Assembly (NCBI GenBank): GCA_022703765.1
Contig: JAKJHQ010000001.1
Span: 17,854-81,853 of the forward strand
Reading direction: 5' to 3'
Length of the DNA: 64,000 bases
Source: Candidatus Wallbacteria bacterium
GTDB taxonomy: Bacteria; Muiribacteriota; UBA9980
Shown: positions 1-41,476 of the stretch, in pieces
Position numbering within the stretch: the first letter of the stretch is position 1
Layout: every line of letters begins with the position of its first letter
The notes under the pieces: generated by a model
Database searches by the model: none
The model's input: the letters and a program-made list of their open reading frames with translations, nothing else
What the model was told of the DNA's origin: nothing
Position numbers and translations under genes: made by a program

Positions 1-2308
1 TAATAACCTTTTTTGCCTCGGCGCTTTCCGTATCGAAGTCATCAGGAAGATCTGAAATAAGCATCGATAAGGGAGGATAAAATTTAATGTCTTTTTTATT
101 TGGGAGCCATGGTTTTGATTTTAAAATTTTTAAAATTTCAGTTTCTTCTTTTGGATTTTTTGCCGTTGAGTAATAAAACGGATTTATGTTTCGCTTAAAA
201 GCATCGATTATAAATCTCCATAAAACGCAGGACTTAGAGATTGAAATGTTATCTAACAAATTATCAATACCTATAATAACAGGCTCTTTAAATATCGATT
301 TTTTATCGACCGGATTTGTTTTAAATCCAAGTTTATTTAATAAATCAATGTCATTGCTTTTAAAAATGTCCTCATATTCTTCAGATAAAAAGCAAATGTC
401 CGGATTTCCTTCAAAGAACTCTTCTAACATATCGTTACCAGAATACTTCAAAGGCAAAAACAATTCATCAGGCATAAAATAAGACAATTTTCCGGATAAT
501 TTATTCAAGCCGAGAAAGATCCTGGTTTCTTTAAGTTTTTGAATTAAAAGTTGTTTATTAGTAATATCTTTTCGAAAAATTTCAATTATTTTCTTTATAT
601 GGCATATGTTTTGGTCAACGGACGGCAAGACATCTGAATTGTATAAAGGCAAAATAAATTTAATTACTTCATCGATTTCATCAGGCTTTTTAATTCCGAT
701 AAGACTAAAGAAATCTTTCGTTAAATCACTTTCTGATATTCGCCTTTTAACCATCGAAAAATATGTATTGTTTTCATCAAATAAAAACACTTGAGGCCGT
801 TCATTTTCATCAAAAGGTTTAATATGGGAATCATTTTCAAGCCGGATAAATGGTTTATGCCTTAACAAGCCATCAGACGCGCAAGCGGCGGACTTTTTCT
901 GCCATAAAGAAATGCTTTTAGAAAGATAAAAATAAAAGTCAATAACCCATTCGTCGGATTGTTTTAATATAAAATCCATATCGAAAAGATCGGCGAATTT
1001 ATTGCCATCTATATTGTTTACTCGCAGTTTTTGCCTAAAATATAAAGCCAAATCTCTATATTTAAAAATATCCGGATGGATCATCCTGGCATTTATATTT
1101 TTAGTTAGTATATTTAAATTATTGTTTTGAGATAATAAATTTAATAATCTTGAGTTTTCAGCGTAATATGCGTTTTTATATTCGACATATCCCTCGTCAT
1201 CGTTTGGAATCAACTGTTCTTCTGACATAAGTTTTTCAAAAACTTTTTCATACGCGCTTCTAAATCTACTTTTTATAGGAAAATCAGATTCGTTGATAGG
1301 CAAAATATTTAAAAAATCCGGATTTAAAAAACCAAGTTTTTTGATTGATAAGATGCTATCGGATATCAATGTTGATATTTCACTGTTTAATTTTAAATTC
1401 CAAACATCGGCAGGCGGCACATTGTCTCTGGCTGGAGTTGTTTTATAGGGGCCTTGCACTAGAAATTTTAAACGCGTATCTATGTTAGTGGGAAAATAAA
1501 CTACAAGCTTTGAATCACTAATTTCTCTTATAGTTTCCGTTTTTGTTTTATCATCGAATTCAATTTTATAAGCAATTTCAACTTTCAAGTCAAGTTCATT
1601 ATTTTCTTCACTATTTACTTTTCTCTTAAAAACAAGCCATTTTTCGCCAATTTTTTTTGTAATATCCGAAACTATAACGATGCTGGACTGGTCATCGATA
1701 ATATTTACCTTCTTTTCGATTATACCTGCGGAACTTTGATTGATCCGCCATTCAAGTTTTTGAATATAATTTAAAAAAAGGATTGTCCTTACGTCGATTT
1801 CAATCAATTTCTTTTTAATTAAATCATATATTTCGTCTTTTGATCTTTTTTTATGCTCGAATTTGAAAACAAATTTTGTAATCTCCGAATTGTATTGAGT
1901 TTCGATAAGTTCAGGCAAAACTAAATTTTTTATATTAAAACTGTAGGTTTTGGAATAAATTTCTGGAGAATTTGTTATAGCATATACCGACTTAAAACCA
2001 ATTCCAAATTTGCCGATTTTATTGACGTCATCTTTTTTCGTGCTGTTACCGATGCTGGTAATCGAAGCGACGTCTTTAAACAAAAAACTAACACCGTCAT
2101 GAAAAAATTCAAGCCGGTCATCAAACAAAATAAAACTGACCGATTTAGCTTTTTGATCTTCCGCATTTTGAATTAATTCATAAATAAAATGAGAAGGATC
2201 GTCGTATAATCCGGAAAATATTTCTTCAAAATTGAAATTATTGTTAGGTCTTTTTAGAGCGTCAAGATATATTTTTCTATCATTAATCAGCTCATTAAAA
2301 TCATTCAT
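1..2308 (-). CDS. Large sacsin/MORC-like GHKL (Bergerat-fold) ATPase. The N-terminus lies in the window; the C-terminus runs past the window start, so more than 769 aa are present.
   Basis: An open minus-strand frame runs from ATG at 2306-2308 (GGAGG RBS at 2316-2320) to position 1 with no stop. The N-terminus carries Bergerat motifs: FIYELIQNAEDQKA (motif I, ExxxNxxD), HDGVSF (motif II) and GKFGIGFKSVY (motif III, GxxGxG). The six-frame track misses it because the stop lies outside the window. Confidence 0.6.
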   Translation of the reverse strand, partial: MNDFNELINDRKIYLDALKRPNNNFNFEEIFSGLYDDPSHFIYELIQNAEDQKAKSVSFILFDDRLEFFHDGVSFLFKDVASITSIGNSTKKDDVNKIGKFGIGFKSVYAITNSPEIYSKTYSFNIKNLVLPELIETQYNSEITKFVFKFEHKKRSKDEIYDLIKKKLIEIDVRTILFLNYIQKLEWRINQSSAGIIEKKVNIIDDQSSIVIVSDITKKIGEKWLVFKRKVNSEENNELDLKVEIAYKIEFDDKTKTETIREISDSKLVVYFPTNIDTRLKFLVQGPYKTTPARDNVPPADVWNLKLNSEISTLISDSILSIKKLGFLNPDFLNILPINESDFPIKSRFRSAYEKVFEKLMSEEQLIPNDDEGYVEYKNAYYAENSRLLNLLSQNNNLNILTKNINARMIHPDIFKYRDLALYFRQKLRVNNIDGNKFADLFDMDFILKQSDEWVIDFYFYLSKSISLWQKKSAACASDGLLRHKPFIRLENDSHIKPFDENERPQVFLFDENNTYFSMVKRRISESDLTKDFFSLIGIKKPDEIDEVIKFILPLYNSDVLPSVDQNICHIKKIIEIFRKDITNKQLLIQKLKETRIFLGLNKLSGKLSYFMPDELFLPLKYSGNDMLEEFFEGNPDICFLSEEYEDIFKSNDIDLLNKLGFKTNPVDKKSIFKEPVIIGIDNLLDNISISKSCVLWRFIIDAFKRNINPFYYSTAKNPKEETEILKILKSKPWLPNKKDIKFYPPLSMLISDLPDDFDTESAEAKKVI

Positions 2309-2363
2309 TAAAAACCTCCAAAACTTCTAATTTATAGTTAATTACATACGATGAACGGCGGTT

Positions 2364-3050
2364 TTATCTTCTAAACGGATTAATGTCATTGTTAGTGTGC
2401 AAAAAAACGTCGCCAATCGGTCTCACCTTTCTGTAATCTGTTTCATTATTATATCCTCCGAATCTGTTAACAAACATGCCATTTGAGAGCAAATACCACT
2501 TGTAACCGTGCTTCAACTTAGAAATTCCATGTTCTTTCATTAATTCAAGCAACGGTTTGACGCTATTGCTATTAAGATAATTATGTACAGTATTTAAAAC
2601 TTTTCTAATTTGAAGATCTGTTTCGTCAAATTGTTTTAAAAATTGGGATATTTCAACTTCTTCGCCTTCTATGACGTCTTCAATTTCACCATCTTCAACT
2701 TCGCCGTCTTCAATAAATTCATAGTCTAAATTTTTTCCTTCCCAAAAAGGTTGTATATCTCTGTTTGATCTTATAAATACATCGCCCAGTGAAGGAACTT
2801 GAGATACATGTCCCTGCTTTGAGCCATATCTGTTAACAAAATCGCCATTGACTTTTAAAAACCATTTTAAGGCGCCGTTTTCATTGTGATACAAGCAATC
2901 TACATTCATCTTCTCCATTAATTTAATAAGTTTGTGAACGCTTGTGCCTTTCAACTGACATGTGCTTCCGATCGGGACTAAAATTCCAAGATCAAGTAAT
3001 TTTTGAAATCCTATTTCGTGAAAAAATTCTATTGAATCGCGTTTATTCAT
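2364..3050 (-). CDS. Hypothetical protein made of two tandem copies of an unrecognised ~95-aa domain (W.L..G.FVNR[YF]GG ... GDVF...N.I[NQ]PF), joined by an acidic linker.
   Basis: ATG at 3050 with a GGGAGGG RBS. The halves are internally duplicated: KWFLKVNGDFVNRYGSKQGHVSQVPSLGDVFIRSNRDIQPF and KWYLLSNGMFVNRFGGYNNETDYRKVRPIGDVFLHTNNDINPF. The same domain opens the CDS at 6826..7941. Confidence 0.55.
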   Translation of the reverse strand: MNKRDSIEFFHEIGFQKLLDLGILVPIGSTCQLKGTSVHKLIKLMEKMNVDCLYHNENGALKWFLKVNGDFVNRYGSKQGHVSQVPSLGDVFIRSNRDIQPFWEGKNLDYEFIEDGEVEDGEIEDVIEGEEVEISQFLKQFDETDLQIRKVLNTVHNYLNSNSVKPLLELMKEHGISKLKHGYKWYLLSNGMFVNRFGGYNNETDYRKVRPIGDVFLHTNNDINPFRR

Positions 3051-3063
3051 TTCGTCCCTCCCT

Positions 3064-3405
3064 TTACATATTTATAATTTTCCATTGAGCGCTCTGACTG
3101 GGCCTGCCCTCTACATCTTTAACGCGACATTTAATTTTATGCAGGATGATTGGAAAAGTCGGCGTAGAACGACCCCTGGGCCATTTTCCGTTGCTTTCAG
3201 TATATGTCCCTTTTTCTTTATCAAAACAGTGGTCGCTTAACATTCTTCCTATATCAGCATTATATGAATCGCATACTGAAGTATCTTTATCTCTTAAATA
3301 TTGGCCTTTGATGGCAATTATAACGTCAATCGTATAAAATAAAGTCTTGCCTTCATCACGCCATTTTTTGATTAATTCTTCAATAAAAGTAACATGATCG
3401 AACAT
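3064..3405 (-). CDS. Small hypothetical protein of about 113 aa. The start was moved to an internal ATG that has a GAGGTG RBS.
   Basis: ORF 3064..3417. An ATG at 3403-3405 is preceded by GAGGTG. It sits 13 nt upstream of the next gene in the same orientation. No recognisable motif. Confidence 0.4.
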   Translation of the reverse strand: MFDHVTFIEELIKKWRDEGKTLFYTIDVIIAIKGQYLRDKDTSVCDSYNADIGRMLSDHCFDKEKGTYTESNGKWPRGRSTPTFPIILHKIKCRVKDVEGRPSQSAQWKIINM

Positions 3406-3504
3406 ATCGCACCTCACAATTCCGATTTTTATCTAATTTATTTACTCACATAACTAATAATTCTAACTTATTTTAAAATCAAAAAAATTATTAATTTTTT
3501 TAAT

Positions 3505-4803
3505 TTATAATGTTTCAATCTTCTTAAATTTCTCGATAATACTCTCGGTCACTGACTTTTCCGTTCTCGTTACAGCCTTCATTATATCGTCTTTAAGAAT
3601 GTGGTCACGCTCGATGTCATTCCGGTCGAAGGCGTCGAAGGCGGCTTCATCAACGATGTGCGCTATGTCTGCGCCGGAATAACCGTCAAGTGCGGCGGCT
3701 ATGTCTATCATTTCGGTTTCGCCGATCTGGCAGGCTTTGTCTTTAAGGTTGATTTTAAGGATTTTTAGGCGTTCTTCGGCGTTCGGCAGGCCTACATAAA
3801 ATTTCTTGTCGAAACGGCCGGGACGGAGGAAAGCTTTGTCGATTTTCTGCGGCTCGTTAGTGGCAGCTATAATGATTATCTGGCGGTCTTTTTCGTTGAA
3901 GAGCGTGCTTAATTGCGATAAAAGGACCGGCGTGATGCGCTCCATAACCGACGACGACTGGCCGTCGCGGGTCTTTAATATCCACTCGGCCTCATCCATG
4001 AATAGCACGGCGCGCGGCTGGCGTGCGATCTCGCTGAATAATTTTTCGAGGTTCTCCTCGGCCTCGCCGGGATAGCCTATTATGAATGAAGGGGTTATTT
4101 CGAAGAATTTCGCCTGTATCTCGCTGCTGATCGCGCGGGCAATAAGGGTCTTGCCCGTGCCGGGCGGACCGTAAAGGAGCATTCCGCCCCCGACGCGCAG
4201 TTTGAATTTGTCGGCGCGCTCAGGGTCCTTTGCGGGCGCGATGATGCGGCTTCGGATGAAGTTTTTGACCTGGTCGAGGCCGGCTACCTGATCGAGGTCG
4301 AAGCCGGCTTCTATTATCTGGCCGGGCAGGGCGGGCGGTTCGGCGTCGATCTCGAGGAATTCTTTGAGTTCGGGCGGCATGTCTTCGAGCGTGCCGTAGA
4401 ATAGTTTCAAGACTTTTTCGGTGATATCGGGGCCGTGAACCGGATATTGCGGGTATGAAAAGCATCCGAATTTCGCCAGTTTTAACTTGATTATTTTATC
4501 CAGGCGATCGAATGCGTTTTCTATGTATAAGATATTTGCGGTGACGGGGCGGACTTTGACATGAAGCGGATATTCGCCGCGGAACGCGCCCGGAACGAGA
4601 TTATAACCCGGCCGGTCTTCCGCCGCGAAAACGCCTATAAGATTTTGCCTTTCGGCATTATAAAGAAAGCCTATATGGCCTTTTTCAATGCTCTGCAGGT
4701 TGGCGTGATCGTATTTTACGCCGCCGAAGACGCCTTTTTCGATGCATTCGGCCTCCGTTTTGTTGTTGCAGATCCTGAAAAAGCACGGAACTTTTATCCT
4801 CAT
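3505..4803 (-). CDS. DCD-domain (PUA-like, EVE/YTH-related) protein fused to a classical AAA+ ATPase.
   Basis: The N-terminus has DCD motifs: FRICNNKTEAECIEKGVFGG, GFLYNAERQNLIGVFAA and PGAFRGEYPLHVKVRPV. The AAA module has Walker A GPPGTGKT, Walker B VLFMDEAE and second-region-of-homology ATNEPQKIDKAFLRPGRFD. The start was set at the second Met (AGGGGTGG RBS 5 nt upstream); the longest ORF begins at 4857. Confidence 0.75.
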   Translation of the reverse strand: MRIKVPCFFRICNNKTEAECIEKGVFGGVKYDHANLQSIEKGHIGFLYNAERQNLIGVFAAEDRPGYNLVPGAFRGEYPLHVKVRPVTANILYIENAFDRLDKIIKLKLAKFGCFSYPQYPVHGPDITEKVLKLFYGTLEDMPPELKEFLEIDAEPPALPGQIIEAGFDLDQVAGLDQVKNFIRSRIIAPAKDPERADKFKLRVGGGMLLYGPPGTGKTLIARAISSEIQAKFFEITPSFIIGYPGEAEENLEKLFSEIARQPRAVLFMDEAEWILKTRDGQSSSVMERITPVLLSQLSTLFNEKDRQIIIIAATNEPQKIDKAFLRPGRFDKKFYVGLPNAEERLKILKINLKDKACQIGETEMIDIAAALDGYSGADIAHIVDEAAFDAFDRNDIERDHILKDDIMKAVTRTEKSVTESIIEKFKKIETL

Positions 4804-4893
4804 AAAGACCACCCCTGTTAATGAATTAATTTTATCAATTATAAATTTATTTGTCAAATAATAGTTTAAGTAGATTTGATATTTTTTTATATG

Positions 4894-5283
4894 CTATCTG
4901 CCGTCTTCCTGACTTTCAATCCTCGCGATGCGTTTTCTTAATTCCATTAATAATTGGAACATGTTCATCTTCCGGAACAGCATTTCGCTTCTCATTTCGC
5001 TTAGCGCTCTTTCTCTTAGTTTCGCCTGCCGTCTTTCTTCTTTCTCAAGCTCAATCCGCTTCTGCTCTTCGTACTGACGTTTTAGCACGTCCAGTTTTTC
5101 TTTTTGCTTTGCCTGGATTTGCTGCCGGTATAACTTGACGTAAAGCGGTGCAAATCCAATTATAGGTCCAAGGATCGCGATATAGGGATTTTCTAAAGCA
5201 TAGTTGCCGCATATAAAGATGACGGCGATAATAAAAATCATCGATTTGACGTATACCCATATAAAATCAAACAGCGTTACCAT
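4894..5283 (-). CDS. Small membrane protein with two predicted TM helices and a charged coiled-coil C-terminus.
   Basis: GAGGAGGT RBS. Hydrophobic N-terminal segments IFIIAVIFICGNYAL and ILGPIIGFAPLYV, then a K/E/R-rich heptad region. Co-oriented within the cluster. Confidence 0.5.
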   Translation of the reverse strand: MVTLFDFIWVYVKSMIFIIAVIFICGNYALENPYIAILGPIIGFAPLYVKLYRQQIQAKQKEKLDVLKRQYEEQKRIELEKEERRQAKLRERALSEMRSEMLFRKMNMFQLLMELRKRIARIESQEDGR

Positions 5284-5378
5284 ATAAATACCTCCTCATC
5301 ATATTTGTAATAGCCGGAAATGGCAATAACATGAATACGAAAAGTTTGCGCTAATTCACTAAATTTGCCTTCATATGA

Positions 5379-6818
5379 TTAAATCGCTTCATCATCTGGT
5401 ATCTGTACATATTCGTTCCGTGACCTTTCGGCGAGGTCCGCCCGGCCGCATTTTTCGTAATATTCAATAGACAGACGGAAATGTTCTCGCGCGCCCCGCA
5501 TCGCGCCATAGGCGGCGAACTCGAGCCCGGCCGAATAGTGGAGCCGGCCCATGTAAAGCGCATTGGTAACGCCGCGCTCGCCGGCAGTTGCGATAGCACG
5601 GCAGTAAAGTTTTAGAGTAGTTTCATGATCGTCAAGCGCGTTTGAATACGCGTCGCAAATGCTCAATAAATCGCGCAGGGGCCTCACGTTATCATCGGAT
5701 ATCAGGCCCAGGTATAATTCGGCGGCGAGAGGCAGATAAGTTTCCGCCGCACCGGTTTCGCTAATGGCGATTGCGGCTTCGGCAATGCCTTTGTATGCAT
5801 CGGCAAGCAGAATGTCGCGGCCAGGCGAAGACGGCATATCCGCAAGCAGGCCGGACGCCGCGCTGAACGCTTCTAAGGCGCCGCGATAGTCGGTTACACA
5901 CATAAGTGAAGAGCCGCCGGTGTTTTCGATAGAAGCGAATACCTCGGGATCGTTAATGCCGCACTCTATCGTATGGCGCTTCAGATCGGCGTTATAAGAG
6001 ATCGCCATGCCGTACCAGCCCAGCTCGGCGCAGGCAAGAAAAGCGAGCTCATAGGCTTCGCGAAGATCGGCATATGGAAAAGAAACCGCCGAAAAGGGTT
6101 TTGGCGGAATATTGCCCGAATGCTCCACCGCCGCATAGCCGTGCTTTTCAATTAAGCCCTCATAAACGGATATCGCGCTGTTTAACTGGCGGAACGCTTC
6201 TTCATATCTGTCGGCCTCCAACAAATAACGGCCGTAGCAGCAATAATAATCGGCGACGGCCGGATCGTTGAGACCGCGCGCCTTCAATATCTCGATCAGC
6301 GCAAGACGCATGTCTTCGCACGCGCCGGCATATTCTTTAAGGGCGCAATGCGCGGCCGCGCGCTTTTTTAATATCATATATTTTTGAACGCTTTCGCTAC
6401 TATCCAGGTCGGACGCCGCGCCGGCTGCGTCACGCCACATTTCTGAGTCGTCGAGGGCCTTTAACGCTTCTTCGAAGCTCCCGTTCTCAATATGGATATA
6501 TGCCGCCGAGTAAAATGCGGTAGCAATGCCGGCTTTGTCCACCGCGCCGCCGCGCACGAAAGTTATGAGCGCCGATTCTATTAATTTAAGCGCCTGCTCG
6601 AAACGGCCGGCGTCATACTCACGCCAGGCTTCTTCGAGCAGCGCACGCGCTCGGTCGGCGCTCGAGCCGGCAAATTCGTCAATACGCGAGGCTGCAAGAG
6701 CAGAAAGTTCACTTATCGAAGGGACCGGTTCATCGGCGGGATCGTTTTGAGCGGCGCCCTCTCCGTGAGGGGTCTGAAAATATTCATCGAGCCTGTCTAA
6801 AAATTCTGAATCGCCCAT
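5379..6818 (-). CDS. TPR-repeat protein.
   Basis: Repeated helical motifs with A/L/Y/G spacing typical of TPR, for example FEQALKLIESAL, YEEAFRQLNSAISVYEGL and ALYMGRLHYSAGLEF. GC-rich gene, 7 nt downstream of the preceding gene. Confidence 0.65.
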   Translation of the reverse strand: MGDSEFLDRLDEYFQTPHGEGAAQNDPADEPVPSISELSALAASRIDEFAGSSADRARALLEEAWREYDAGRFEQALKLIESALITFVRGGAVDKAGIATAFYSAAYIHIENGSFEEALKALDDSEMWRDAAGAASDLDSSESVQKYMILKKRAAAHCALKEYAGACEDMRLALIEILKARGLNDPAVADYYCCYGRYLLEADRYEEAFRQLNSAISVYEGLIEKHGYAAVEHSGNIPPKPFSAVSFPYADLREAYELAFLACAELGWYGMAISYNADLKRHTIECGINDPEVFASIENTGGSSLMCVTDYRGALEAFSAASGLLADMPSSPGRDILLADAYKGIAEAAIAISETGAAETYLPLAAELYLGLISDDNVRPLRDLLSICDAYSNALDDHETTLKLYCRAIATAGERGVTNALYMGRLHYSAGLEFAAYGAMRGAREHFRLSIEYYEKCGRADLAERSRNEYVQIPDDEAI

Positions 6819-6825
6819 AATAACT

Positions 6826-7941
6826 TCACCTTCTTCCGCCCGCGGGCTTTCTTTTTAAATAAGCCTCCAGCGTGACCGCAAGCTGCGGGTTAGCGCAGGC
6901 GACCTTCAGCATCTCATAAAAATAATCGCCTTCGAGCTCCCGGTAGGCGTCAAGTATATCTTTCCAGCCGATAAGCCTTACCCGCGAAGGATTGCAGCCC
7001 GCCGGACGCAATCCTTCTTCATAGTCAGGCGCGCTTCCCTCGCCGCGGGGGGCGCCGGTTAATTCGGCCAGCAATCCGGCTTCAAATTCAGCCGTAGGAG
7101 AAAGAATAAGGCCGACATGCGCAAAGTTTTCGGGCGGCATGGCGTTGCGCTCCATGATAGTATTTATAACAGGCATCTGCCTGCGCATCTGGGCGGCGAG
7201 ATCGGACGCCGTCACGTAGTCGTACATCTTCGCCTCGACCACCACCAGGAATTTTTCGCCGCACGCCGCGCGCAGCAATATAACGATATCCGGCGTGTCG
7301 CGCTTTATATGCCATACTTCCCGCCAATCCAGGGCGGATTCTTTGAGCGAATATTCGGTGTAGAAACATATTTCAGAATTCGAATATTCAGTTTTGATAA
7401 ATTTATCCGGAACGCCGGCCATTTTAAGAAAAATATGCAGACGGCTGAAACGGCCGCCGCAGACTATATTCGGAAATACGCATGAAGTCCAGTAGCGTTC
7501 TTTCCTGTTAAGCGGCAGCGAGTTTATCATATCGTTCATTTCACCGGCGCGCTCGAGATCGGTTGCGCGAAAGGCGCGGGCTGCAGAGCCCGGGAGTTCG
7601 GGGCGCCCGGACGGGTTCAAGCCGCCAGGTTTCTTGCAGTAAAAGGGATTAATGCGCCTGTTGGCCCCTCTAAATACCTCACCCATAGAAGAAACCGATG
7701 TTAGCTTAACCGGTTCGTCATGGCCGCCATAACGGTTTACGAAAACGCCGCCGGACTCCAGCGACCAGTCTTCGCCGAATTCCAGCCCGGAAACGCCTTT
7801 CTGCTCCATAAAAGCCATAAGCGGCGCAACGCTCGCGCCAGTAAGAATAAGCTTTTCACCGTTGATTATCCCGAGCTTCATAAGCTTGCATAGCCCCGCA
7901 GACTCCAAAAATACGGTAATGTTTTCAACAACGCCTTGCAT
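6826..7941 (-). CDS. Fusion of the unrecognised ~95-aa domain (N-terminus) to a PD-(D/E)xK nuclease-fold domain (C-terminus).
   Basis: AAAGGGGTGA RBS. The N-terminal copy is DWSLESGGVFVNRYGGHDEPVKLTSVSSMGEVFRGANRRINPF. The C-terminal half has a textbook motif, TPDIVILLRAACGEKFLVVVEAKMYD (PD ... ExK), with an upstream acidic EICFYTEYS. Confidence 0.6.
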   Translation of the reverse strand: MQGVVENITVFLESAGLCKLMKLGIINGEKLILTGASVAPLMAFMEQKGVSGLEFGEDWSLESGGVFVNRYGGHDEPVKLTSVSSMGEVFRGANRRINPFYCKKPGGLNPSGRPELPGSAARAFRATDLERAGEMNDMINSLPLNRKERYWTSCVFPNIVCGGRFSRLHIFLKMAGVPDKFIKTEYSNSEICFYTEYSLKESALDWREVWHIKRDTPDIVILLRAACGEKFLVVVEAKMYDYVTASDLAAQMRRQMPVINTIMERNAMPPENFAHVGLILSPTAEFEAGLLAELTGAPRGEGSAPDYEEGLRPAGCNPSRVRLIGWKDILDAYRELEGDYFYEMLKVACANPQLAVTLEAYLKRKPAGGRR

Positions 7942-14117: not shown

Positions 14118-16442
14118 TTAATCGGTAATATTGAATTTTTTCATGAGTCGCCAGAGAGTCACCCGGCTGATGTTAAGAGCTTTAGACGTTTTGATTTTGT
14201 TATATTTATATTTAACAAGATATTCCAGAAGCGTTTCTATTCCAATTTCACATTTTTTACATTTCGTTTCTACCTGGTTACATTTCGTTTCAGCAAAAAG
14301 CGATTCGCCTTTACAATTCGTTTCATCATAATTTGCAACTATAGAATCTACTTTTTCTTTAATTATTTTGTTATAAAAAGCAGAATATTCTTCAGGCAGA
14401 TCGCTAAGTTTAATTTTTCCATCCCTGCAGATTATATATGCGTATTCCAGCATATTATATAGCTGCCTTGCATTTCCAGGAAAATCATAAGTTAGAAGTA
14501 TCGTCCTTACTTCATCCGATAAAGAGTTAATATTTTTATTTTCCTTAATGTTAAGTCTATTTATGAAACTATAAGCAAGCAGTTCGATATCTTCCCTGCG
14601 CTCCCGAAGAGGCGGTATATTAAAATAAATCACGCGCAACCTGTAAAAAAGATCTTCTCTGAATTTTCCTTCCTCAACAAGTTTTTTTAAATTCCTGTTG
14701 GTAGCCGCTATCAATCTGAAATTAACTTTCACGGTTTTTGCCGACCCCAGCGGTTCGAAACTTTTTTCTTCAATCACCCTAAGTAATTTAACTTGCAGAT
14801 GCATAGGAACTTCTCCAATTTCGTCAAGAAATATAGTTCCTTTATCGGCGGCGGCGAATTTGCCTGGTTTGTCGGTTTTGGCGTCCGTAAAAGCGCCTCT
14901 GACATAACCAAAAAGTTCTGATTCCAGAAGTGTTTCAGGAATCGCCCCGCAGTTTATAACTACGAAAGGGCCGCCATGCCGTGGAGATAAATTATGAATA
15001 GTTCTGGCTATAAGGCTTTTTCCGGTTCCGGACGGGCCTTCTATCATTACGTTACCGCCGCATTCTGAAATGGAAGGCAGCGTTTCAAAAACAAATTTCA
15101 TATATTCGCTTTTTCCAACGACATCTCCAAGCGTATAATTTTTTAACGATTCTTTTTTTACAAGATCGATTTTTTGTTCAAGCTCGATTTTTTCAGTAAC
15201 ATCAGTTACCAGAGCAAGCCTTCCGGCGGCATTGCCCTCGCGGTCCGTTAAAGCAGACGCTGACACTTTGACATATATTTTTTTGCCGCTTTTATGCTTG
15301 AGCAATGCTTCATAATGCCTGGCGTTTCCTCGAGTTAATTTTGAATAAACGTCATAATAAGAATTAAGATTGTCCTGATAAATAAATTCACCGACGTTTT
15401 TCTTTTCTATTTCGGCAGCAGTATACCCAATTATATTAGCCATTTGCCGGTTCAAATATATCGTATTGCCATTGTTATCGATAACCCAGAATCCTTCGCT
15501 GGACATTTCAATAAGTTCATGATAACGTTTTTCGCTCTCTATAAAGGCGTTTTCAACGTTAACGCGCGCGCTTATATCACGAACTAAAGTAATTATCGCC
15601 GGAATTTTTTGAAATTCTGTCATACTGGCGCTTATCTCTACCGGAAATACAGTTCCGTCACTTGCGACATAATGGGATTCATAAAGAAATTTTCCATACT
15701 TTTCAATTTTTTTAAGCCGAAAATCTATCTCTAACCGATGAAATTGAGCGTTAATATCCGCGATAGTCAATCCAATCAATTGATGTTTTTCATATTTTAA
15801 TTTTTGGCAGGCGTGTTCATTAACTTCAAGTATTTTTCCGCTCAAATCGGTAATAATGATTGAGTCGCTGATGGAAGCGAATATTTTTTTCAACTTTAGT
15901 TCAGAGTCAATTATAACTATTTCAGCCTTTTTATACTCGTTTATATCACTTATAGTCATACGGCAGGTTTTTTCTTCGCCGCACCCTTTCGCAATTGAAG
16001 ATCGAATCAAAACCCATTTTTTTTTATCGCCGCAATTCAGCCTTATTTCACAGTTCTGCGGCTCGCAAATTTGAAAAAGTTTTTTACAATGCATATAAAA
16101 AATATCCTGGTCCTGATAGCATATAAAATTCGTAAAATTAGCATTAACAAGTGCATCTCTTTTAAGCCCTAAAAATTCGGCCGCGGTATAATTAGCTTCT
16201 ATAATCAGCCCGTTTTCAGAAATGGTACAGTACCCCACGGGTGCAAGATCATATAATTCAAAATATTTTGCCTTCGAAACGTTAAGTTCGGCGTGAATTC
16301 TGCACAACTCTTCGTTTTGCATCTCCAGCTCAATTTGATAAATGCGGAGGTTATGAAGAAGTTTTCGAGTTTCTTCGAGAGAAAGAGAATCAATATCTCC
16401 ACAGCCGGTTATATATTTACGATTAACGTTAAAATTGCTCAT
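14118..16442 (-). CDS. Sigma-54-dependent transcriptional activator with N-terminal coiled-coil and PAS domains and no receiver domain. Its GAFTGA loop reads GAFTDA.
   Basis: GPSGTGKSLIARTIH Walker A. ESELFGYVRGAFTDA. FLDEIGEVP Walker B. R-finger region REDLFYRLRVIYFNIPPLRERREDI. C-terminal Fis-type HTH SKALNISRVTLWRLMKK. Confidence 0.85.
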   Translation of the reverse strand: MSNFNVNRKYITGCGDIDSLSLEETRKLLHNLRIYQIELEMQNEELCRIHAELNVSKAKYFELYDLAPVGYCTISENGLIIEANYTAAEFLGLKRDALVNANFTNFICYQDQDIFYMHCKKLFQICEPQNCEIRLNCGDKKKWVLIRSSIAKGCGEEKTCRMTISDINEYKKAEIVIIDSELKLKKIFASISDSIIITDLSGKILEVNEHACQKLKYEKHQLIGLTIADINAQFHRLEIDFRLKKIEKYGKFLYESHYVASDGTVFPVEISASMTEFQKIPAIITLVRDISARVNVENAFIESEKRYHELIEMSSEGFWVIDNNGNTIYLNRQMANIIGYTAAEIEKKNVGEFIYQDNLNSYYDVYSKLTRGNARHYEALLKHKSGKKIYVKVSASALTDREGNAAGRLALVTDVTEKIELEQKIDLVKKESLKNYTLGDVVGKSEYMKFVFETLPSISECGGNVMIEGPSGTGKSLIARTIHNLSPRHGGPFVVINCGAIPETLLESELFGYVRGAFTDAKTDKPGKFAAADKGTIFLDEIGEVPMHLQVKLLRVIEEKSFEPLGSAKTVKVNFRLIAATNRNLKKLVEEGKFREDLFYRLRVIYFNIPPLRERREDIELLAYSFINRLNIKENKNINSLSDEVRTILLTYDFPGNARQLYNMLEYAYIICRDGKIKLSDLPEEYSAFYNKIIKEKVDSIVANYDETNCKGESLFAETKCNQVETKCKKCEIGIETLLEYLVKYKYNKIKTSKALNISRVTLWRLMKKFNITD

Positions 16443-16462
16443 TTGCTATCCTTTTTTCATTT

Positions 16463-17806
16463 TCAAACAGCAGTTTCTGGTTCTTTTAAGCTTTTCGAAG
16501 CTTTTTCTTTCATATCGAAAGGTATGGTTACGACAAAGCGGCTGCCTGAGCCCAACCGGCTTTCGACAAAAATTTTTCCGTTAAGCATTTCGACTATGCC
16601 TTTAACAATTGAAAGGCCCAGCCCGGTTCCGCCGTAACGCCTCGTGCTGGAATCATCGACCTGATAAAATCTTTCAAAAATTTCATCAACGTCATCGCTT
16701 GAAATTCCTATGCCGGTATCGGAAACCTCAATAGATACATTCGAAACATTTTCTTTTTTTTCAGATTCATAAATTTTAACTTTGACTTCGCCTTTAGAGG
16801 TAAATTTGATAGCGTTCGCAATCAGGTTTACGATAATCTGTTTAATCCTGAAAGGATCGCCGTACAATTTATAATTTATAGCGGGGTCTATTTCATAGCC
16901 AAGCTCGATTTTTTTCTTTTCAGCAAGTATAGACATCATTTTTACAGTTTTTTCGGCAATATCATTGATATCGAATATATTTTTTTCGAGCTTTAACTTT
17001 TTCGCTTCGATTTTTGAAAAATCCATTATATCATTGATAATTTCCAGCAGATTATTTGACGAATATTTGATCCAGCCAACAAGCTCGGCCTGCCTGTCGT
17101 CGATCCCGCTCATCGAAACCAGCTGTGAAAAACCGATTATGGCGTTTAAAGGCGTGCGCAGCTCATGAGTTACATTGGCCAGGAACCTGCTTTTAGCGAT
17201 ATTGGCGGCTTCGGCTTTTTCCCTGGCGGCGATCAGCGATTCTTCGATAGTTTTAAGGTAGTTTATGTCGCTGACGGCGGTACGGCAAACCATTGCCCCT
17301 TGCTCGTCGCAGGCGGTTAGCGATTCGAGCCTCGCCCAGAAGCATGAAGAATCTTTTCTTTTAAGCCTCAACTCACAATTTCCGGAGAAGGGTTTTTTGA
17401 AAAGGTTCTTCCTGTAATGGTAATAGATATCCTGGTCCTCCGAATATATATAATCGGTAAAATGTTTTTTGACAAGTTCGTTTCTCTGCAGGCCGAGAAG
17501 GTTTGCAAGGGTAAGGTTAGCCTGTGTAATGACCCCTTTTTCGTCTATGCTCAGATATCCGTTGGGGGCCAGATCGTAAAGTTCGAAGTAACGCGCCACG
17601 GACAGTTCCAGCTCGTGCCGCGTCCTTCGTAATTCATCGTTCTGCATTTCCAGCTCGATCTGGTGCACGCGCAGTTCGTGTACCAGACGGCGGGCGTCTT
17701 CAATCGAGAGATTCTGTTCCGCATTATTTTCTTCATTAAGCGATTTTTGCTCCGCAACCCATCGCAGCCTGGCTATTTCATCCATAGCAGCTTGATTACC
17801 GGCCAT
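16463..17806 (-). CDS. PAS-sensor histidine kinase.
   Basis: HisKA H-box ANVTHELRTPLNAIIGFSQLV. HATPase_c N/G boxes NLIANAIKFT and DTGIGI ... GGTGLGLSIV. The N-terminal coiled-coil plus PAS resembles that of the gene at 14118..16442. Confidence 0.9.
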   Translation of the reverse strand: MAGNQAAMDEIARLRWVAEQKSLNEENNAEQNLSIEDARRLVHELRVHQIELEMQNDELRRTRHELELSVARYFELYDLAPNGYLSIDEKGVITQANLTLANLLGLQRNELVKKHFTDYIYSEDQDIYYHYRKNLFKKPFSGNCELRLKRKDSSCFWARLESLTACDEQGAMVCRTAVSDINYLKTIEESLIAAREKAEAANIAKSRFLANVTHELRTPLNAIIGFSQLVSMSGIDDRQAELVGWIKYSSNNLLEIINDIMDFSKIEAKKLKLEKNIFDINDIAEKTVKMMSILAEKKKIELGYEIDPAINYKLYGDPFRIKQIIVNLIANAIKFTSKGEVKVKIYESEKKENVSNVSIEVSDTGIGISSDDVDEIFERFYQVDDSSTRRYGGTGLGLSIVKGIVEMLNGKIFVESRLGSGSRFVVTIPFDMKEKASKSLKEPETAV

Positions 17807-17834
17807 AAATTACCTCACGATCAAATCTAAATTT

Positions 17835-39082: not shown

Positions 39083-41476
39083 CTAGCCGTTCATACGCAA
39101 AGAGGCTGTTTTGATTATGCGCGCGGCGGCGAGATGGCCGTTAAATTCGGCTATATAAGCCGCGGTTTTACCGTCGTTATCCTTAGCTTCGGCCGAAGCG
39201 CCGCAATTGATGAGGATTTTTATTATATCTTCGTTTCCGTTGTGGGCGGCCGCTATCAGGGGCGTTTTTCCTCCCGCGTCCGCCGCGTTGCAATCGGCTT
39301 TATTGTTAACGAGCAATTGTACGGCCTCAAAATTATTGGCTGCGGCGCTTTCTATAAGCGGGGTCCTTTCGTCGTTGTCCCTTTCGTTTACGTTTGCGCC
39401 GGAGCTTATAAGGGCTTTCATCGACTGAATGTAGCCTCCGCGCGCCGCTTCCATAAGCGCCGTGCGGCCCTTTACGTCGCGCGCGTTGACGTTCGCGCCG
39501 TGTTTAATGAGATTGAGGGCGATCTCGAAATTGCCGCGAAGGGCCGCTTCCATAAGCGGCGTCCTTTCGTTGTCGTCGGCCGCGTTCACGTCGGCGCCGG
39601 CCTCTATCAGCCTGTTGCAGAAAGAGGTCTTGCCGAGCAGCGCGGCGTCGTGCAGAGCGCTGCGGCCGTTGTCGTCGAGCGCCTTCACGTCGGCGTCGCT
39701 GGCTATAAGCGCTTTTACGATATCCATATTTTCGCCGTAAATCGACGCGGCGGCTTCGTGAAGGGGGGTTTTGCCGTTATCGTCTTTCAGGTTTACGGCC
39801 GCGTTTTTCTTTAAAACGGTCCTTATGAACTCCCAGTTGCCTCGAAGCACGGCGTCGTGCAGAGCGCTTCTTCCTTCGTCGTCGCGGGCGTTTATATCGG
39901 CGCCGTTTTCGACGAGAAGCGAAGTTATCAGAGCGCTGTTGGCAGAAAACGAAGCGGCGGCTTCATGCAGGGCGCTGCGCCCGCTGTCGTCGCGGCTGTT
40001 AATGTTTACGCCCTTTTCGATAAGCACTTTAACGGCCTCGGCGCCGTTTTTGCCCGAAGCGTAGATAAGCGCGGTGCGGCCTTTGTTGTCTTTCGCGTTT
40101 ACGTCGAGGCCTTTATCGATAAGCACTTTTAAAGTTTCTATATTGTTGAGGTTCTCCTGCGAAAATAAAACGGTTTTGCCGTCGTTATCGCGGTTATTCA
40201 CGTTTATTCCGCTTTCTACGAGCATTTTAAATATGGCGTCGTAGCCTTTTTCGCGGGCCAGGGCGAGCGCGGTTTTGCCGTCGTTGTTTTTAACGTCAAC
40301 GTCGGCGCCGGCGGTTATGAGGCCTCTTACCACGTCGTAATGGCCGTTTTCTACGCCCATTATGAGCGCGCTCCTGCCGAGGCGGTCTTTGGCGTCTATA
40401 TTGGCGCAGCGCGTCGCGAGAAGGTTAACCACGTTGGCATGGCCGGCTTCGGCGGCTTTCATGAGCGCCACGGAACGGCAGTTATCGCAAATGTTGGCGT
40501 CGGCGCCTTTTTCGACGAATAACCTCACTATGTCTATATGGCCCTTTTCGGCGGCGCTCATAAGGGCCGTGGCGCAATAATTGGTTTGCGCGTTTATGTC
40601 GGCGCCACGGTTGATAAGCAGTTCGGCGATTTCGGCATGCCCCTTTTCGGCGGCGTACATCAGCGCCGTCGTGCAGCATGTCGTCTTGGCGTTTATGTCG
40701 GCGCCGCTGTGAACGAGGAGCCGCGTTATTTCTTTATTTCCGTGATCGGCCGCGATCATGAGGGCGGTGATCATGGAAGACGAGTATTCGTTGACGTTCG
40801 CGCCGTTTTCCAGAAGCAGCTTTACGTTTTCGCAGTCGTTGCAATCTACGGCCTCCATCAGGGCCGTTCTTCCGTTTTCGTCCCTGAGGTTGACGTCGGC
40901 GTTAAGGTTGATAAGCAGTTTAGCCGTTTCCGTGCGGCCGCATTCGCAGGCGCGCATAAGCGGAGTGCGGCCCCTGGAATCCCTGGCGTTGACGTTGACT
41001 CCGTGATGGACAAGATACCTCACTATGGCGATCTGGCCGCACTCGGCCGTTTCGTTGATGGCCGTTTCCACCCATTTTCTCGCGGGATCGAATTCGTGTC
41101 CGTTTTTTATGAAAAGATCGGCCACGTTGTCGTAGCCGCGCCAGATGGCGAACATCAGAGAGTCCCAACCCTCGCGGTCTTTCATTGTAGAGTCCGCTCC
41201 GCTGGCTAAAAGCATTTCGCATATATCGTAATAACCGCGCCAGGCCGCGAACATAAGCGGGGTCCACCCGTCTTCCGTCGCCGCGTTAACGTTAGCCTCG
41301 TTATCTACGAGCAATTTTACGGTATCGAGATAACCCTTTTTAACGGCTTTATGCAGCGCCGTTTCGCCGTCGATTCCGCAGTAGTCGATATCGGCCTTTT
41401 TTAAAATTAAAACCCTTAATAATTCATTGTTTCCGCGTCTCGCCGCGTCGATTAAATTTTCATTTATCTTTTCCAT
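39083..41476 (-). CDS. Ankyrin-repeat protein with about 24 tandem ANK repeats.
   Basis: Repeated G.T(A/P)L(H/M).AA..G(H/Y)..(I/V)V..L(L/I)..GA(D/N)VNA units throughout. Start set at ATG 41476, which has an AGGAGG RBS; the ORF extends to 41563 without one. Confidence 0.85.
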   Translation of the reverse strand: MEKINENLIDAARRGNNELLRVLILKKADIDYCGIDGETALHKAVKKGYLDTVKLLVDNEANVNAATEDGWTPLMFAAWRGYYDICEMLLASGADSTMKDREGWDSLMFAIWRGYDNVADLFIKNGHEFDPARKWVETAINETAECGQIAIVRYLVHHGVNVNARDSRGRTPLMRACECGRTETAKLLINLNADVNLRDENGRTALMEAVDCNDCENVKLLLENGANVNEYSSSMITALMIAADHGNKEITRLLVHSGADINAKTTCCTTALMYAAEKGHAEIAELLINRGADINAQTNYCATALMSAAEKGHIDIVRLFVEKGADANICDNCRSVALMKAAEAGHANVVNLLATRCANIDAKDRLGRSALIMGVENGHYDVVRGLITAGADVDVKNNDGKTALALAREKGYDAIFKMLVESGINVNNRDNDGKTVLFSQENLNNIETLKVLIDKGLDVNAKDNKGRTALIYASGKNGAEAVKVLIEKGVNINSRDDSGRSALHEAAASFSANSALITSLLVENGADINARDDEGRSALHDAVLRGNWEFIRTVLKKNAAVNLKDDNGKTPLHEAAASIYGENMDIVKALIASDADVKALDDNGRSALHDAALLGKTSFCNRLIEAGADVNAADDNERTPLMEAALRGNFEIALNLIKHGANVNARDVKGRTALMEAARGGYIQSMKALISSGANVNERDNDERTPLIESAAANNFEAVQLLVNNKADCNAADAGGKTPLIAAAHNGNEDIIKILINCGASAEAKDNDGKTAAYIAEFNGHLAAARIIKTASLRMNG

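What the first reader, a model, noticed from the sequence alone, without database searches (positions are those of the whole stretch)
1..2308. Large sacsin/MORC-like GHKL ATPase at the 3' end of the cluster, not reported by the ORF track
A frame open for 2308 nt runs off the window start. Its N-terminus carries the Bergerat-fold motifs (ELIQNAEDxxA, HDG, GKFGIGFKS) characteristic of the sacsin/HATPase_c_3 clade. Prokaryotic members of this clade recur in restriction-modification and defence contexts. The missing C-terminus, upstream of position 1, may hold further effector or DNA-binding domains such as a DUF3883-type region.
Basis: partly seen in the sequence, partly recalled or inferred. Interest (0 to 1): 0.55.

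Follow-up and report, generated by a model that had tools for sequence, protein, structure and literature searches.

The report
Tiamat-type defence ATPase-nuclease, helicase-coupled
The open frame at the window's left edge is a real, intact gene for a Tiamat-family anti-phage protein (an Hsp90/sacsin-type ATPase joined to a DNA-cutting domain). It is a known kind of defence gene, unusual here only in being translationally coupled to a helicase.

Summary
Confirmed. On the minus strand an ATG at 2308, preceded by a GGAGG ribosome-binding site, opens a frame that runs stop-free for 769 codons to the window edge (chance about 5e-30).

Four public contigs are nucleotide-identical over window 1-2308. 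They show a 1056-aa protein, OQA79405.1 from bacterium ADurb.Bin243, a Candidatus Wallbacteria-like digester MAG.

- **N-terminus:** a sacsin/Hsp90-type GHKL ATPase with intact motifs.
- **Family:** the protein matches PADLOC's TmtA (Tiamat) models at 4.8e-78. It belongs to a large family of more than 5,000 clusters at 50% identity, found in at least 516 species genomes.

What is not standard is the next gene. Its stop codon overlaps the start of a 583-aa SF1 (DNA2/Upf1-like) helicase. That pairing recurs in three diverged lineages, which share a distinct NOV_C subtype. Two other lineages carry GHKL-SF1 helicase fusions.

A DCD(EVE-like)-AAA+ ATPase and proteins sharing an unnamed ~100-aa domain recur nearby, but their linkage is unproven.

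Verdict: a new, helicase-coupled variant of a known kind, of moderate interest.

The parts
1..2308 (-). First 769 codons of a 1056-codon gene for a TmtA (Tiamat)-family protein, identical to OQA79405.1 / BWY32_01658 of bacterium ADurb.Bin243. Residue i occupies 2308-3(i-1) down to 2306-3(i-1). Residues 770-1056 (end of middle region, disordered linker, NOV_C nuclease) lie off the window.
2315..2319 (-). GGAGG ribosome-binding site, 6 nt upstream of the ATG at 2308
   Evidence: read directly from the sequence
1769..2230 (-). GHKL (Bergerat-fold) ATP-binding domain of the sacsin/Hsp90 type, residues ~27-180
   Evidence: Pfam SACS, NCBIfam P_loop_sacsin, PDB profile hits to sacsin SR1 and Hsp90, and Foldseek hits to sacsin SR1 and HtpG
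2156..2179 (-). GHKL motif I, E44-LIQNAE-D51. By GHKL precedent E44 is the general base and N48 the Mg ligand.
   Evidence: E44, Q47, N48, A49 and D51 are invariant
2093..2101 (-). GHKL motif II in a family-specific form, H70-D71-G72. The family consensus is H-N-G-x-x-F, which lacks the second Gly of the canonical DxGxG.
1988..2014 (-). GHKL motif III (ATP lid), G99-KFGIGFK-S107
   Evidence: G99, F101, G102, G104, F105, K106 and S107 are invariant
1409..1768 (-). Beta-rich second domain, residues ~181-300, in the position of the S5-like transducer. It ends in the invariant T290-T291-P-A-R294 (R294 = 1427-1429), a candidate phosphate-sensing basic residue.
   Evidence: AF2 model pLDDT ~85-95 here; 350-490-column structural alignments to topo II ATPase, MutL N40 and MORC2; invariant columns
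2..1408 (-). Family-specific alpha/beta middle region, residues 301-769 (continues to ~815 off-window). It is conserved across the whole TmtA-like family and has no named domain.
2364..3050 (-). Upstream gene p228 (OQA79404.1): two tandem copies of an unnamed ~100-aa domain separated by an acidic linker. A 329-aa homologue (33% identity) sits two genes upstream of the TmtA-like gene in L162. Possible partner, unproven.
3064..3405 (-). Upstream gene p113 (OQA79403.1), no known domain, under purifying selection (dN/dS 0.18). Possible partner, unproven.
3505..4803 (-). DCD (EVE-like, PF10539) + classical AAA+ ATPase, 432 aa (OQA79402.1). Homologues at 48% identity flank the TmtA-like/helicase pair in L162 and L163, but homologues at 43-49% identity stand alone elsewhere. 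Recurrent neighbour; linkage uncertain.

Best explanation
Window 1-2308 encodes the N-terminal 73% of a 1056-aa TmtA (Tiamat)-family anti-phage protein.

Shown:
- It joins a sacsin/Hsp90-type GHKL ATPase and a transducer-like second domain to a large family-specific middle region. A disordered linker then leads to a C-terminal NOV_C/DUF3883 PD-(D/E)xK nuclease domain.
- All catalytic motifs are intact.
- The gene is under purifying selection.
- It sits in a defence island.
- Its stop codon overlaps the start of an SF1 (DNA2/Upf1-like) helicase gene. That coupling recurs in three diverged lineages.

Inferred mechanism:
1. As in MutL, topoisomerase VI, MORC/paraMORC and the GHKL-Shedu protein VcSduA, ATP binding dimerises the GHKL heads. 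This closes a clamp on foreign DNA or on a phage-made trigger.
2. Clamp closure licenses the tethered NOV_C domain to nick or cut.
3. The co-translated helicase then loads at the nick and unwinds or translocates, so that damage to the invader becomes irreversible.

In short, it is a two-gene, helicase-assisted variant of the single-gene Tiamat system.
For: Identity:
- PADLOC TmtA models score 7.3e-66 for the window part and 4.8e-78 for the full length. All nine TmtA models hit.
- Pfam SACS plus NOV_C; NCBIfam sacsin N-terminal domain; PDB sacsin SR1 at 1e-16.
- AF2 model pLDDT 79. Foldseek hits sacsin SR1, HtpG, topo II ATPase, MutL and MORC2.

Active sites:
- GHKL motifs are invariant.
- NOV_C residues E913, D969, E982 and K984 align with the conserved G-x-G-x-D ... 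E-V-K of relatives.
- In HmaA the NOV_C domain is a nickase, and its D/E/K residues are essential for T4 defence (PMC11232893).

The gene is functional:
- Identical in four contigs.
- dN/dS is 0.15 for this gene and 0.10 for the helicase.

Defence context:
- ZorB at 3.2e-61 and a ZorC-like gene lie next door.
- Relatives sit in R-M and DISARM islands.

Helicase coupling:
- The stop/start overlap is 8 nt in the window lineage and its 90% relative, and 4 nt in L162 and L163.
- Between those lineages the helicases are 60-69% identical and the TmtA-like N-terminal parts about 40% identical.
- Their NOV_C domains are 55-62% identical to each other, against 28-37% to stand-alone Tiamat-type relatives.
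- Two independent GHKL-SF1 helicase fusion proteins exist, P0008 and L182.
- Another clade of the family sits directly after, and in many loci overlaps, a DrmD-type SNF2 helicase gene in 34 of 80 loci. A GHKL-helicase partnership is therefore a recurring theme, as described for MORC/paraMORC (PMC2292703).
- VcSduA shows that a GHKL ATPase and a fused PD-(D/E)xK nuclease are both required for defence (PMC12137116).
Against: - No experiment exists for this protein. Reviews list the mechanism of Tiamat itself as unknown.
- The TmtA profile match covers mainly profile positions 30-654 of 1302. PADLOC's TmtA models are 1063-1782 positions long, so this is a short, divergent member.
- The nearest other 50%-identity cluster representative is only 43% identical.
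- None of the 80 best genome loci and none of the 13 viral loci carries an ortholog of this stand-alone helicase next to the TmtA relative.
- A helicase ortholog at 48% identity stands alone. The pairing is therefore confined to a small subgroup, and only three lineages were seen, two of them from one metagenome.
- Motif II deviates from the canonical DxGxG.
- The NOV_C Pfam score is modest, and the C-terminal part of the model gave no significant structural match.
- The clamp-then-cut-then-unwind order is inference by analogy.
Confidence: 0.65

Rival explanations
1. Ordinary stand-alone Tiamat. The protein acts alone, as TmtA is scored in PADLOC. The helicase, the DCD-AAA ATPase and the small genes are separate defence genes that merely share an island or insertion hotspot.
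For: - PADLOC scores Tiamat as one gene, and a census preprint lists it among single-gene PD-(D/E)xK systems.
- NOV_C-type relatives such as L004, L009, L012 and L015 have no conserved neighbour.
- None of 80 genome loci has the helicase.
- A helicase ortholog at 48% identity is solitary.
- G+C differs between the genes: 0.31 for the TmtA-like gene, 0.41-0.43 for the helicase, 0.50 for DCD-AAA.
Against: - Stop/start overlaps of 4-8 nt are conserved in three lineages while the proteins diverged to 40-60% identity.
- The helicase-linked proteins share a distinct NOV_C subtype.
- GHKL-SF1 helicase fusions exist.
- The same rank order of G+C per gene recurs in L162 and L006. It therefore looks gene-specific rather than a sign of separate origin.
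Confidence: 0.2
2. One larger multi-gene system. The TmtA-like nuclease and the helicase would be effector modules. They would work with the DCD(EVE-like)-AAA+ ATPase, the TPR protein, the p228-type domain proteins and the 371-aa putative nuclease (window 2364-7941). The DCD reader would detect modified phage DNA, in the manner of a type IV restriction system.
For: - DCD-AAA homologues (48% identity) lie next to the TmtA-like/helicase pair in L162 and L163, in a different gene order.
- A p228 homologue lies upstream of the TmtA-like gene in L162.
- The p228-type domain also forms the N-terminus of the 371-aa protein. That protein carries a PD-(D/E)xK-like motif and, with a TPR protein, accompanies DCD-AAA in the window and in L169.
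- Prokaryotic DCD domains are predicted modified-base readers in restriction contexts (PMC7641849).
- All these genes are on one strand with short gaps.
Against: - DCD-AAA homologues at 49% and 43% identity sit alone among housekeeping genes.
- L162 and L163 come from one metagenome. Their DCD-AAA genes are 98.6% identical while their helicases are only 69% identical, which fits cargo swapping beside a resident gene.
- The 371-aa, TPR, 129-aa and DCD-AAA proteins have more close relatives in Wallbacteria MAGs than the TmtA-side genes have.
- No PADLOC model covers such a system.
Confidence: 0.2
3. Not immunity. The protein would be a housekeeping DNA-repair, chromosome-maintenance or chaperone factor: an Hsp90/sacsin-like or MutL-like ATPase working with a helicase.
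For: - The nearest solved relatives are chaperone domains, sacsin SR1 and Hsp90.
- The GHKL + nuclease + helicase trio also describes MutL-UvrD mismatch repair.
Against: - The distribution is patchy and points to horizontal transfer.
- G+C is far below the host level, 0.30 against about 0.49.
- The gene sits beside Zorya genes, and relatives sit inside R-M and DISARM loci.
- Family profiles come from an experimentally validated defence system.
- No MutS-like partner is present.
Confidence: 0.06
4. A decaying pseudogene, or a spurious open frame in AT-rich DNA.
For: Only that the frame is cut by the window edge and that G+C is low.
Against: - Chance of the open frame is 5e-30.
- The full 1056-aa frame is intact and identical in four contigs from different samples.
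- dN/dS is 0.15.
- All catalytic motifs are kept.
Confidence: 0.01

Closest known systems
Tiamat defence system, protein TmtA (named by Millman et al. 2022; PADLOC models PDLC03964-03972)
   Same: - Significant matches to all nine TmtA profiles, best 4.8e-78.
- Same architecture: a sacsin-type GHKL ATPase at the N-terminus and a DUF3883/NOV_C PD-(D/E)xK domain at the C-terminus.
- Defence-island setting.
   Different: - Short for the family (1056 aa against profiles of 1063-1782 positions) and divergent: 43% identity or less to any other cluster representative, and 30-33% to NOV_C-type relatives.
- Translationally coupled to an SF1 helicase, whereas Tiamat is scored as a single gene.
- Its NOV_C domain belongs to a subtype shared only with the other helicase-linked members.
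GHKL-Shedu / paraMORC3 (e.g. Vibrio cholerae VcSduA)
   Same: One polypeptide with an N-terminal GHKL ATPase, a clamp-like middle part and a C-terminal PD-(D/E)xK nuclease. In VcSduA both the ATPase (E27A) and the nuclease (K557A) are needed for defence (PMC12137116). This is the best experimental analogue for how the protein may work.
   Different: - A different GHKL clade (HATPase_c/paraMORC against sacsin/Hsp90-like).
- A different nuclease family (DUF4263 against NOV_C).
- No helicase partner.
- No sequence-level membership: no Shedu/SduA model appears among the PADLOC hits for this protein at E <= 0.01.
HmaA of the Hma system (Snf2 helicase fused to NOV_C)
   Same: - The same nuclease domain family (NOV_C, PF13020), working with a helicase in phage defence.
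- Nickase activity has been shown, and the catalytic D/E/K residues are essential (PMC11232893).
   Different: In HmaA the helicase is SNF2 (SF2) and is fused to the nuclease, and there is no GHKL ATPase. Here the nuclease is fused to a GHKL ATPase and the helicase is SF1 and encoded separately.
TmtA-like proteins next to DrmD in DISARM class-1-like loci
   Same: They are among the closest relatives of the N-terminal ~770 residues (31-38% identity in the first protein search). They are also paired with a helicase gene, in many loci with overlapping reading frames (34 of 80 genome loci).
   Different: - The C-terminus is a Cys4 (CxxC...CxxC) module instead of NOV_C.
- The partner is an upstream SNF2 helicase (PADLOC DrmD, 1.9e-116), sometimes with an HEPN_Swt1 N-terminus, rather than a downstream SF1 helicase.
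Sacsin SR1 / Hsp90 N-terminal domain
   Same: The nucleotide-binding fold and motifs. These are the nearest solved structures (5v44-5v47 at 1e-16 by profile; Foldseek E about 1e-6).
   Different: They are eukaryotic chaperone modules with no nuclease, no helicase partner and no role in nucleic-acid defence. The similarity is limited to residues ~30-240.
MORC/paraMORC and MutL systems combining a GHKL ATPase, a nuclease and a helicase (Iyer, Abhiman & Aravind 2008)
   Same: The same functional triad and the same proposed logic: an ATP-driven clamp or looping engine, a nuclease, and a helicase that unwinds from the nick.
   Different: Those families pair mostly with SF2 helicases and methylases, and they use MORC- or MutL-type GHKL domains. 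No methylase is linked here.

Membership tests
Tiamat / TmtA | Significant match to the TmtA profile HMMs | tested here: met
   PDLC03972 scores 7.3e-66 for the window part and 4.8e-78 for the full length; all nine TmtA models hit. The scores fall within the range of other family subgroups, 1e-50 to 1e-90. PADLOC's own coverage cut-offs were not available.
Tiamat / TmtA | N-terminal sacsin-type GHKL ATPase with intact nucleotide-binding motifs | tested here: met
   Pfam SACS at 67 bits (cut-off 32.8) and NCBIfam NF047352 at 91.9 bits (cut-off 50). Motifs I and III are invariant in alignments.
Tiamat / TmtA | C-terminal DUF3883/NOV_C PD-(D/E)xK domain.
   PF13020 scores 30.6 bits (cut-off 22.1) at residues 956-1023 of the full-length protein, which lies off-window. 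E913, D969, E982 and K984 are aligned and conserved.
Tiamat / TmtA | Acts as a single-gene system | tested here: inconclusive
   The gene overlaps a helicase gene by 8 nt, and the pairing is conserved in three lineages. Dependence on the helicase cannot be judged from sequence.
Tiamat / TmtA | Confers resistance to phage | not testable with these tools
   Needs plaque assays.
GHKL ATPase superfamily | Bergerat-fold motifs: I (ExxxNxxD), II (DxGxG), III (GxxGxG) and IV (conserved Thr) | tested here: met
   Motif I is E44-N48-D51, motif III is G99-G102-G104, and T144 is invariant. Motif II is a family variant, H-D/N-G-x-x-F, without the second Gly. The fold is supported by Foldseek hits at probability 1.00.
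GHKL ATPase superfamily (GHL/MORC type) | A second, S5-like transducer domain that supplies a basic residue to the ATP site | tested here: inconclusive
   The predicted structure aligns over 350-490 columns with topo II ATPase, MutL N40 and MORC2, and R294 is invariant. This rests on a model, and the role of R294 is inferred.
MORC family proper | MORC-type GHKL domain (Pfam HATPase_c_3) and the MORC-specific motif | tested here: not met
   HATPase_c_3 is absent from this protein's Pfam hits at E <= 0.01. In relatives it stays below the 25-bit cut-off, at 23 and 21.6 bits. Sacsin and Hsp90 score far better than MORC. The MORC-specific motif was not examined separately.
Shedu (SduA) | DUF4263 nuclease domain | tested here: not met
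   No DUF4263 hit in Pfam and no Shedu/SduA hit in PADLOC at E <= 0.01. The nuclease domain is NOV_C.
SF1 DNA2/NAM7(Upf1)-like helicases (the partner gene, off-window) | AAA_11 + AAA_12 core with Walker A/B and the helicase motifs | tested here: met
   PF13086 at 1.2e-26 and PF13087 at 3.8e-35. GPPGTGKT, DE, GGDPxQLPP, QGQE and VALSRA are invariant in 30 orthologs.

The most novel reading that the evidence does not exclude
The TmtA-like nuclease and its overlapping SF1 helicase are two parts of a larger, undescribed multi-gene immune system. It would span at least window 1-7941 plus the helicase. The other parts would be a DCD(EVE-like)-AAA+ ATPase, a TPR protein, and proteins built from an unnamed ~100-aa domain, one of them fused to a PD-(D/E)xK-like nuclease. 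The DCD reader-motor would recognise modified phage DNA and hand it to the GHKL-nuclease/helicase effector. That would amount to a type IV-restriction-like form of Tiamat and would give Tiamat a sensing mechanism.
Probability: 0.2. Interest if true: 0.6.

Novelty: new variant of a known kind. Interest (0 to 1): 0.4.

Why it matters
Tiamat is one of the defence systems validated in 2022 whose mechanism is still listed as unknown.

A natural variant in which the GHKL-nuclease is translationally coupled to a helicase, or in other lineages fused to one, suggests DNA as the target. It suggests a clamp, nick and unwind logic like MutL-UvrD or MORC-helicase restriction systems. It also offers a simple experimental handle: compare one gene against two genes, with point mutants in three active sites.

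The survey shows three further things:
- The TmtA-like family is large, with more than 5,000 clusters at 50% identity.
- The family swaps C-terminal effectors, NOV_C against a Cys4 module.
- The family swaps helicase partners: DrmD-type SNF2, SF1 in trans, or SF1 fused. This is useful when annotating "Tiamat" hits.

For the window itself the practical result is modest. The unreported frame is a real defence gene at the edge of a defence island in a Candidatus Wallbacteria-like MAG.

Tried and rejected
- Megablast of window 1-5000 against E. coli genomes: no match.
- Scan of metagenome contigs with the helicase alignment: the back-translated patterns (WGPPGTGK, GGDPxQLPP) were generic. They returned only unrelated SF1 helicases at 33% identity or less, none with a TmtA-like neighbour.
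- tblastn against plasmids: one weak helicase hit and six partial TmtA-like hits, nothing informative.
- Viral contigs: 13 relatives, none with the stand-alone helicase, but one new fusion, L182.
- AF2 of p228 from a single sequence: pLDDT 31, unusable. The shallow alignment A4 of its repeats was not used.
- Literature: the published Millman 2022 paper is not held, and its preprint text does not contain the name Tiamat. The statements that Tiamat is single-gene, PD-(D/E)xK-containing and of unknown mechanism therefore rest on secondary papers and on my own recollection.
- Rfam, tRNA and repeat scans of the region: nothing except the internal repeat of p228.
- Promoter and terminator scans: not above the shuffled expectation.
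- Using the low G+C of the TmtA gene as proof of a separate origin from DCD-AAA: rejected, because the same per-gene rank order of G+C recurs in L162 and L006.
- In some searches some minus-strand references (those I cut down to leave out the stop codon) were shifted by one codon, so they lost the start codon and kept the stop. This explains the "not in the collection" results. One search corrected it, and the domain hits are unaffected.
Full report
**The observation**

On the minus strand, the ATG at 2308-2306 opens a frame that stays open for 769 codons to the window edge. The other five frames of the same stretch hold 24-110 stops. With the local composition (30% G+C, stop probability 0.084 per codon) the chance of such a run is about 5e-30. 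A GGAGG lies 6 nt upstream of the ATG.

The ORF lister leaves the frame out only because it runs off the end of the window.

**Extending the gene**

The exact product of the upstream 228-aa ORF, and later of the full-length protein itself, was found on several public contigs. L001, L002, L003 and L008 are identical to window 1-2308 at every nucleotide. In all four the frame continues to a single stop after 1056 codons.

The protein is OQA79405.1 (BWY32_01658) of "bacterium ADurb.Bin243", from a 209,853-bp contig. Neighbouring proteins have 90%-level relatives in Candidatus Wallbacteria MAGs. A 90%-identical allele (P0001, L006) gives dN/dS = 0.15.

**What the protein is**

| Test | Result |
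|---|---|
| Pfam SACS (PF25794), N-terminus | 67 bits, cut-off 32.8 |
| NCBIfam sacsin N-terminal ATP-binding domain | 2.5e-26 |
| Family profile against PDB, human and lizard sacsin SR1 | 1e-16 |
| Family profile against PDB, Hsp90 N-domains | about 1e-4 |
| Pfam NOV_C (= DUF3883, PF13020), residues 956-1023 | 3.6e-7 |

An AlphaFold2 model was built from the 90% allele with a 43-sequence alignment (mean pLDDT 79, pTM 0.58). It is confident for residues 1-815, disordered for 815-906, and moderately confident for 907-1040. Foldseek against the PDB returns sacsin SR1, HtpG/GRP94 N-domains, topoisomerase II ATPase regions, MutL N40 and MORC2. The alignments to the two-domain ATPases span 350-490 columns. 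This supports a GHKL domain followed by a transducer-like domain.

E44, Q47, N48, A49, D51, G99, G102, G104, T144 and R294 are invariant in 33-43 relatives, and G72 is invariant in the first set and nearly so in the second. Motif II is a family-specific H-(D/N)-G-x-x-F.

In the off-window NOV_C domain, E913 (GFRGE), D969 (GRD) and E982-V-K984 align with the conserved G-x-G-x-D ... E-V-K pattern. "MORC-like" is less apt, because the MORC-type Pfam model does not reach threshold here.

**It already has a name**

All nine PADLOC TmtA (Tiamat) models match, the best at 7.3e-66 for the window part and 4.8e-78 for the full length.

In the held literature:
- Tiamat is reported by PADLOC as a one-gene system.
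- A census preprint lists it among single-gene PD-(D/E)xK systems.
- Reviews list its mechanism as unknown.

No mechanistic paper was found.

The family is large. There are 5,472 clusters at 50% identity with E <= 1e-3 and 1,614 with E <= 1e-30. The nearest other cluster representative is 43% identical. At least 516 species genomes carry relatives.

**Surroundings**

The gene has 0.30-0.31 G+C, against about 0.49-0.55 for nearby host-like genes.

Just beyond the window edge, L008 shows:
- a 583-aa SF1 helicase whose ATG lies 8 nt before the TmtA stop;
- an acidic Zn-ribbon ORF;
- convergent ZorB (PADLOC 3.2e-61) and a short ZorC-like gene.

This is a defence island. Upstream in the window, on the same strand, lie p228, p113 and a DCD + AAA+ ATPase. 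The rest of the window encodes ordinary signalling and transport genes.

**Is the helicase a partner?**

Against:
- None of the 80 best genome loci and none of the 13 viral loci has this stand-alone helicase beside the TmtA relative.
- A helicase ortholog at 48% identity is solitary.

For:
- Helicase orthologs at 60-61% identity (L162, L163) again start 4 nt before the stop of a SACS+NOV_C gene.
- The NOV_C domains of these helicase-linked proteins are 55-62% identical to ours, against 28-37% for stand-alone NOV_C relatives. The N-terminal 770 residues are about 36-40% identical to all of them.
- Two separate proteins fuse the TmtA-like N-terminal region to an SF1 helicase: P0008 (1630 aa) and L182 (1423 aa).
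- In 34 of the 80 genome loci a different clade, with a Cys4 C-terminus instead of NOV_C, sits directly after, and in many loci overlaps, a DrmD-type SNF2 helicase. L005 shows the full DISARM-like context.
- The helicase is under purifying selection (dN/dS 0.10), and its motifs are invariant in 30 orthologs.

Pairing of a GHKL ATPase with a helicase is thus a recurrent theme in this family, as Iyer et al. described for MORC and paraMORC. I put the probability that the helicase is a functional partner at about 0.7.

**Is the DCD-AAA block part of it?**

DCD-AAA homologues (48% identity) lie next to the TmtA-like/helicase pair in L162 and L163, in a different order. A 329-aa homologue of p228 lies upstream of the TmtA-like gene in L162.

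The ~100-aa p228-type domain also forms the N-terminus of the window's 371-aa protein (6826-7941). Its C-terminus reads like a PD-(D/E)xK site (TPDIV...VVVEAKMYD). Its 40%-identical ortholog accompanies a TPR protein and DCD-AAA in L169.

Against a single system:
- DCD-AAA homologues at 49% and 43% identity are alone among housekeeping genes.
- L162 and L163, from one metagenome, share a 98.6%-identical DCD-AAA but helicases only 69% identical. This fits cargo exchange beside a resident gene.

Linkage is therefore open, at about 0.2. Bell et al. predicted that prokaryotic DCD domains read modified bases in restriction contexts. That prediction is the basis of the more novel reading.

**Mechanism**

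Shown: the domain content, the intact active sites, selection, and gene coupling.

Known from relatives:
- The NOV_C domain of HmaA is a nickase, and its D/E/K residues are essential for T4 defence.
- In the GHKL-Shedu protein VcSduA both the ATPase and the nuclease are required.
- GHKL+S5 modules work as ATP-driven dimerising clamps.

Inferred: ATP-dependent clamp closure on invading DNA licenses the tethered NOV_C nuclease, and the co-translated SF1 helicase extends the damage from the nick.

**Verdict**

The object is a divergent member of the known Tiamat family. It belongs to a small helicase-coupled subgroup that current single-gene definitions do not describe. Interest is moderate.

Noticed in passing
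window 6826-7941 (-), with 5379-6818 (-), 4894-5283 (-) and 3505-4803 (-): A 371-aa protein has no Pfam or PADLOC hit. It combines the unnamed ~100-aa domain of p228 with a C-terminal PD-(D/E)xK-like motif (TPDIVILL...LVVVEAKMYD). It is followed by a TPR protein, a 129-aa ORF and the DCD-AAA+ ATPase. A 40%-identical ortholog has the same company in L169. This may be an undescribed reader-motor-nuclease module, in the manner of a type IV restriction system.
   Followed up: partly
window 2364-3050 (-); DNA repeat 2462-2483 / 2828-2849: p228 consists of two tandem copies of an unnamed domain (...W.L..NG.FVNR.GG....G.VF...N..INPF) joined by an acidic linker. Homologues with one to three copies occur in L162 (329 aa), L169 (355 aa) and the window's 371-aa protein. 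Single-sequence structure prediction failed.
   Followed up: partly
L008:5579-8179, just beyond window position 1: An acidic 161-176-aa protein with an N-terminal CPxCG...CPxCG zinc ribbon lies here. It is followed by convergent ZorB (PADLOC 3.2e-61) and a short 403-aa protein with only a weak EH-signature (ZorC-like). No ZorD-like gene follows ZorC, which would make this an atypical Zorya.
   Followed up: partly
L013, L016-L019, L023-L045 and others (34 of 80 genome loci); L005: A clade of TmtA-like proteins has a Cys4 (CQIC...C..C) C-terminus instead of NOV_C. It is encoded directly after, in many loci overlapping, a DrmD-type SNF2 helicase (PADLOC 1.9e-116). Some of these helicases carry an N-terminal HEPN_Swt1 domain. 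In L005 the context is a DUF1156/PLD-SNF2 DISARM-like locus. PADLOC TmtA profiles hit these equally well, so automated 'Tiamat' calls may mix distinct systems.
   Followed up: partly
P0008 (L007:50-4942) and L182:3884-8155: Single polypeptides of 1630 and 1423 aa fuse the TmtA-like GHKL and middle region to an SF1 AAA_11/AAA_12 helicase. The L182 gene overlaps an upstream 1198-aa RecD-like helicase gene on an IMG/VR viral contig.
   Followed up: partly
L162 and L163 (same metagenome, 3300002988): Two contigs share a 98.6%-identical DCD-AAA gene and a 95%-identical downstream segment. The adjacent helicases are only 69% identical, and the TmtA-like C-terminal segments, the only part of that gene L163 retains, 66%. 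This suggests cassette exchange next to a conserved gene. ParE/Phd toxin-antitoxin pairs follow in both contigs.
   Followed up: no
window 39083-41563 (-): An 826-aa protein made almost entirely of ankyrin repeats (Pfam Ank_2, 6e-181), which I regard as uncommon in bacteria.
   Followed up: no
window 14118-20528 (-): A lower-G+C stretch (0.36-0.42) encodes a PAS/sigma-54 activator, a PAS histidine kinase and a fused CheB-CheR-PAS protein. These are signalling genes, not defence genes.
   Followed up: no
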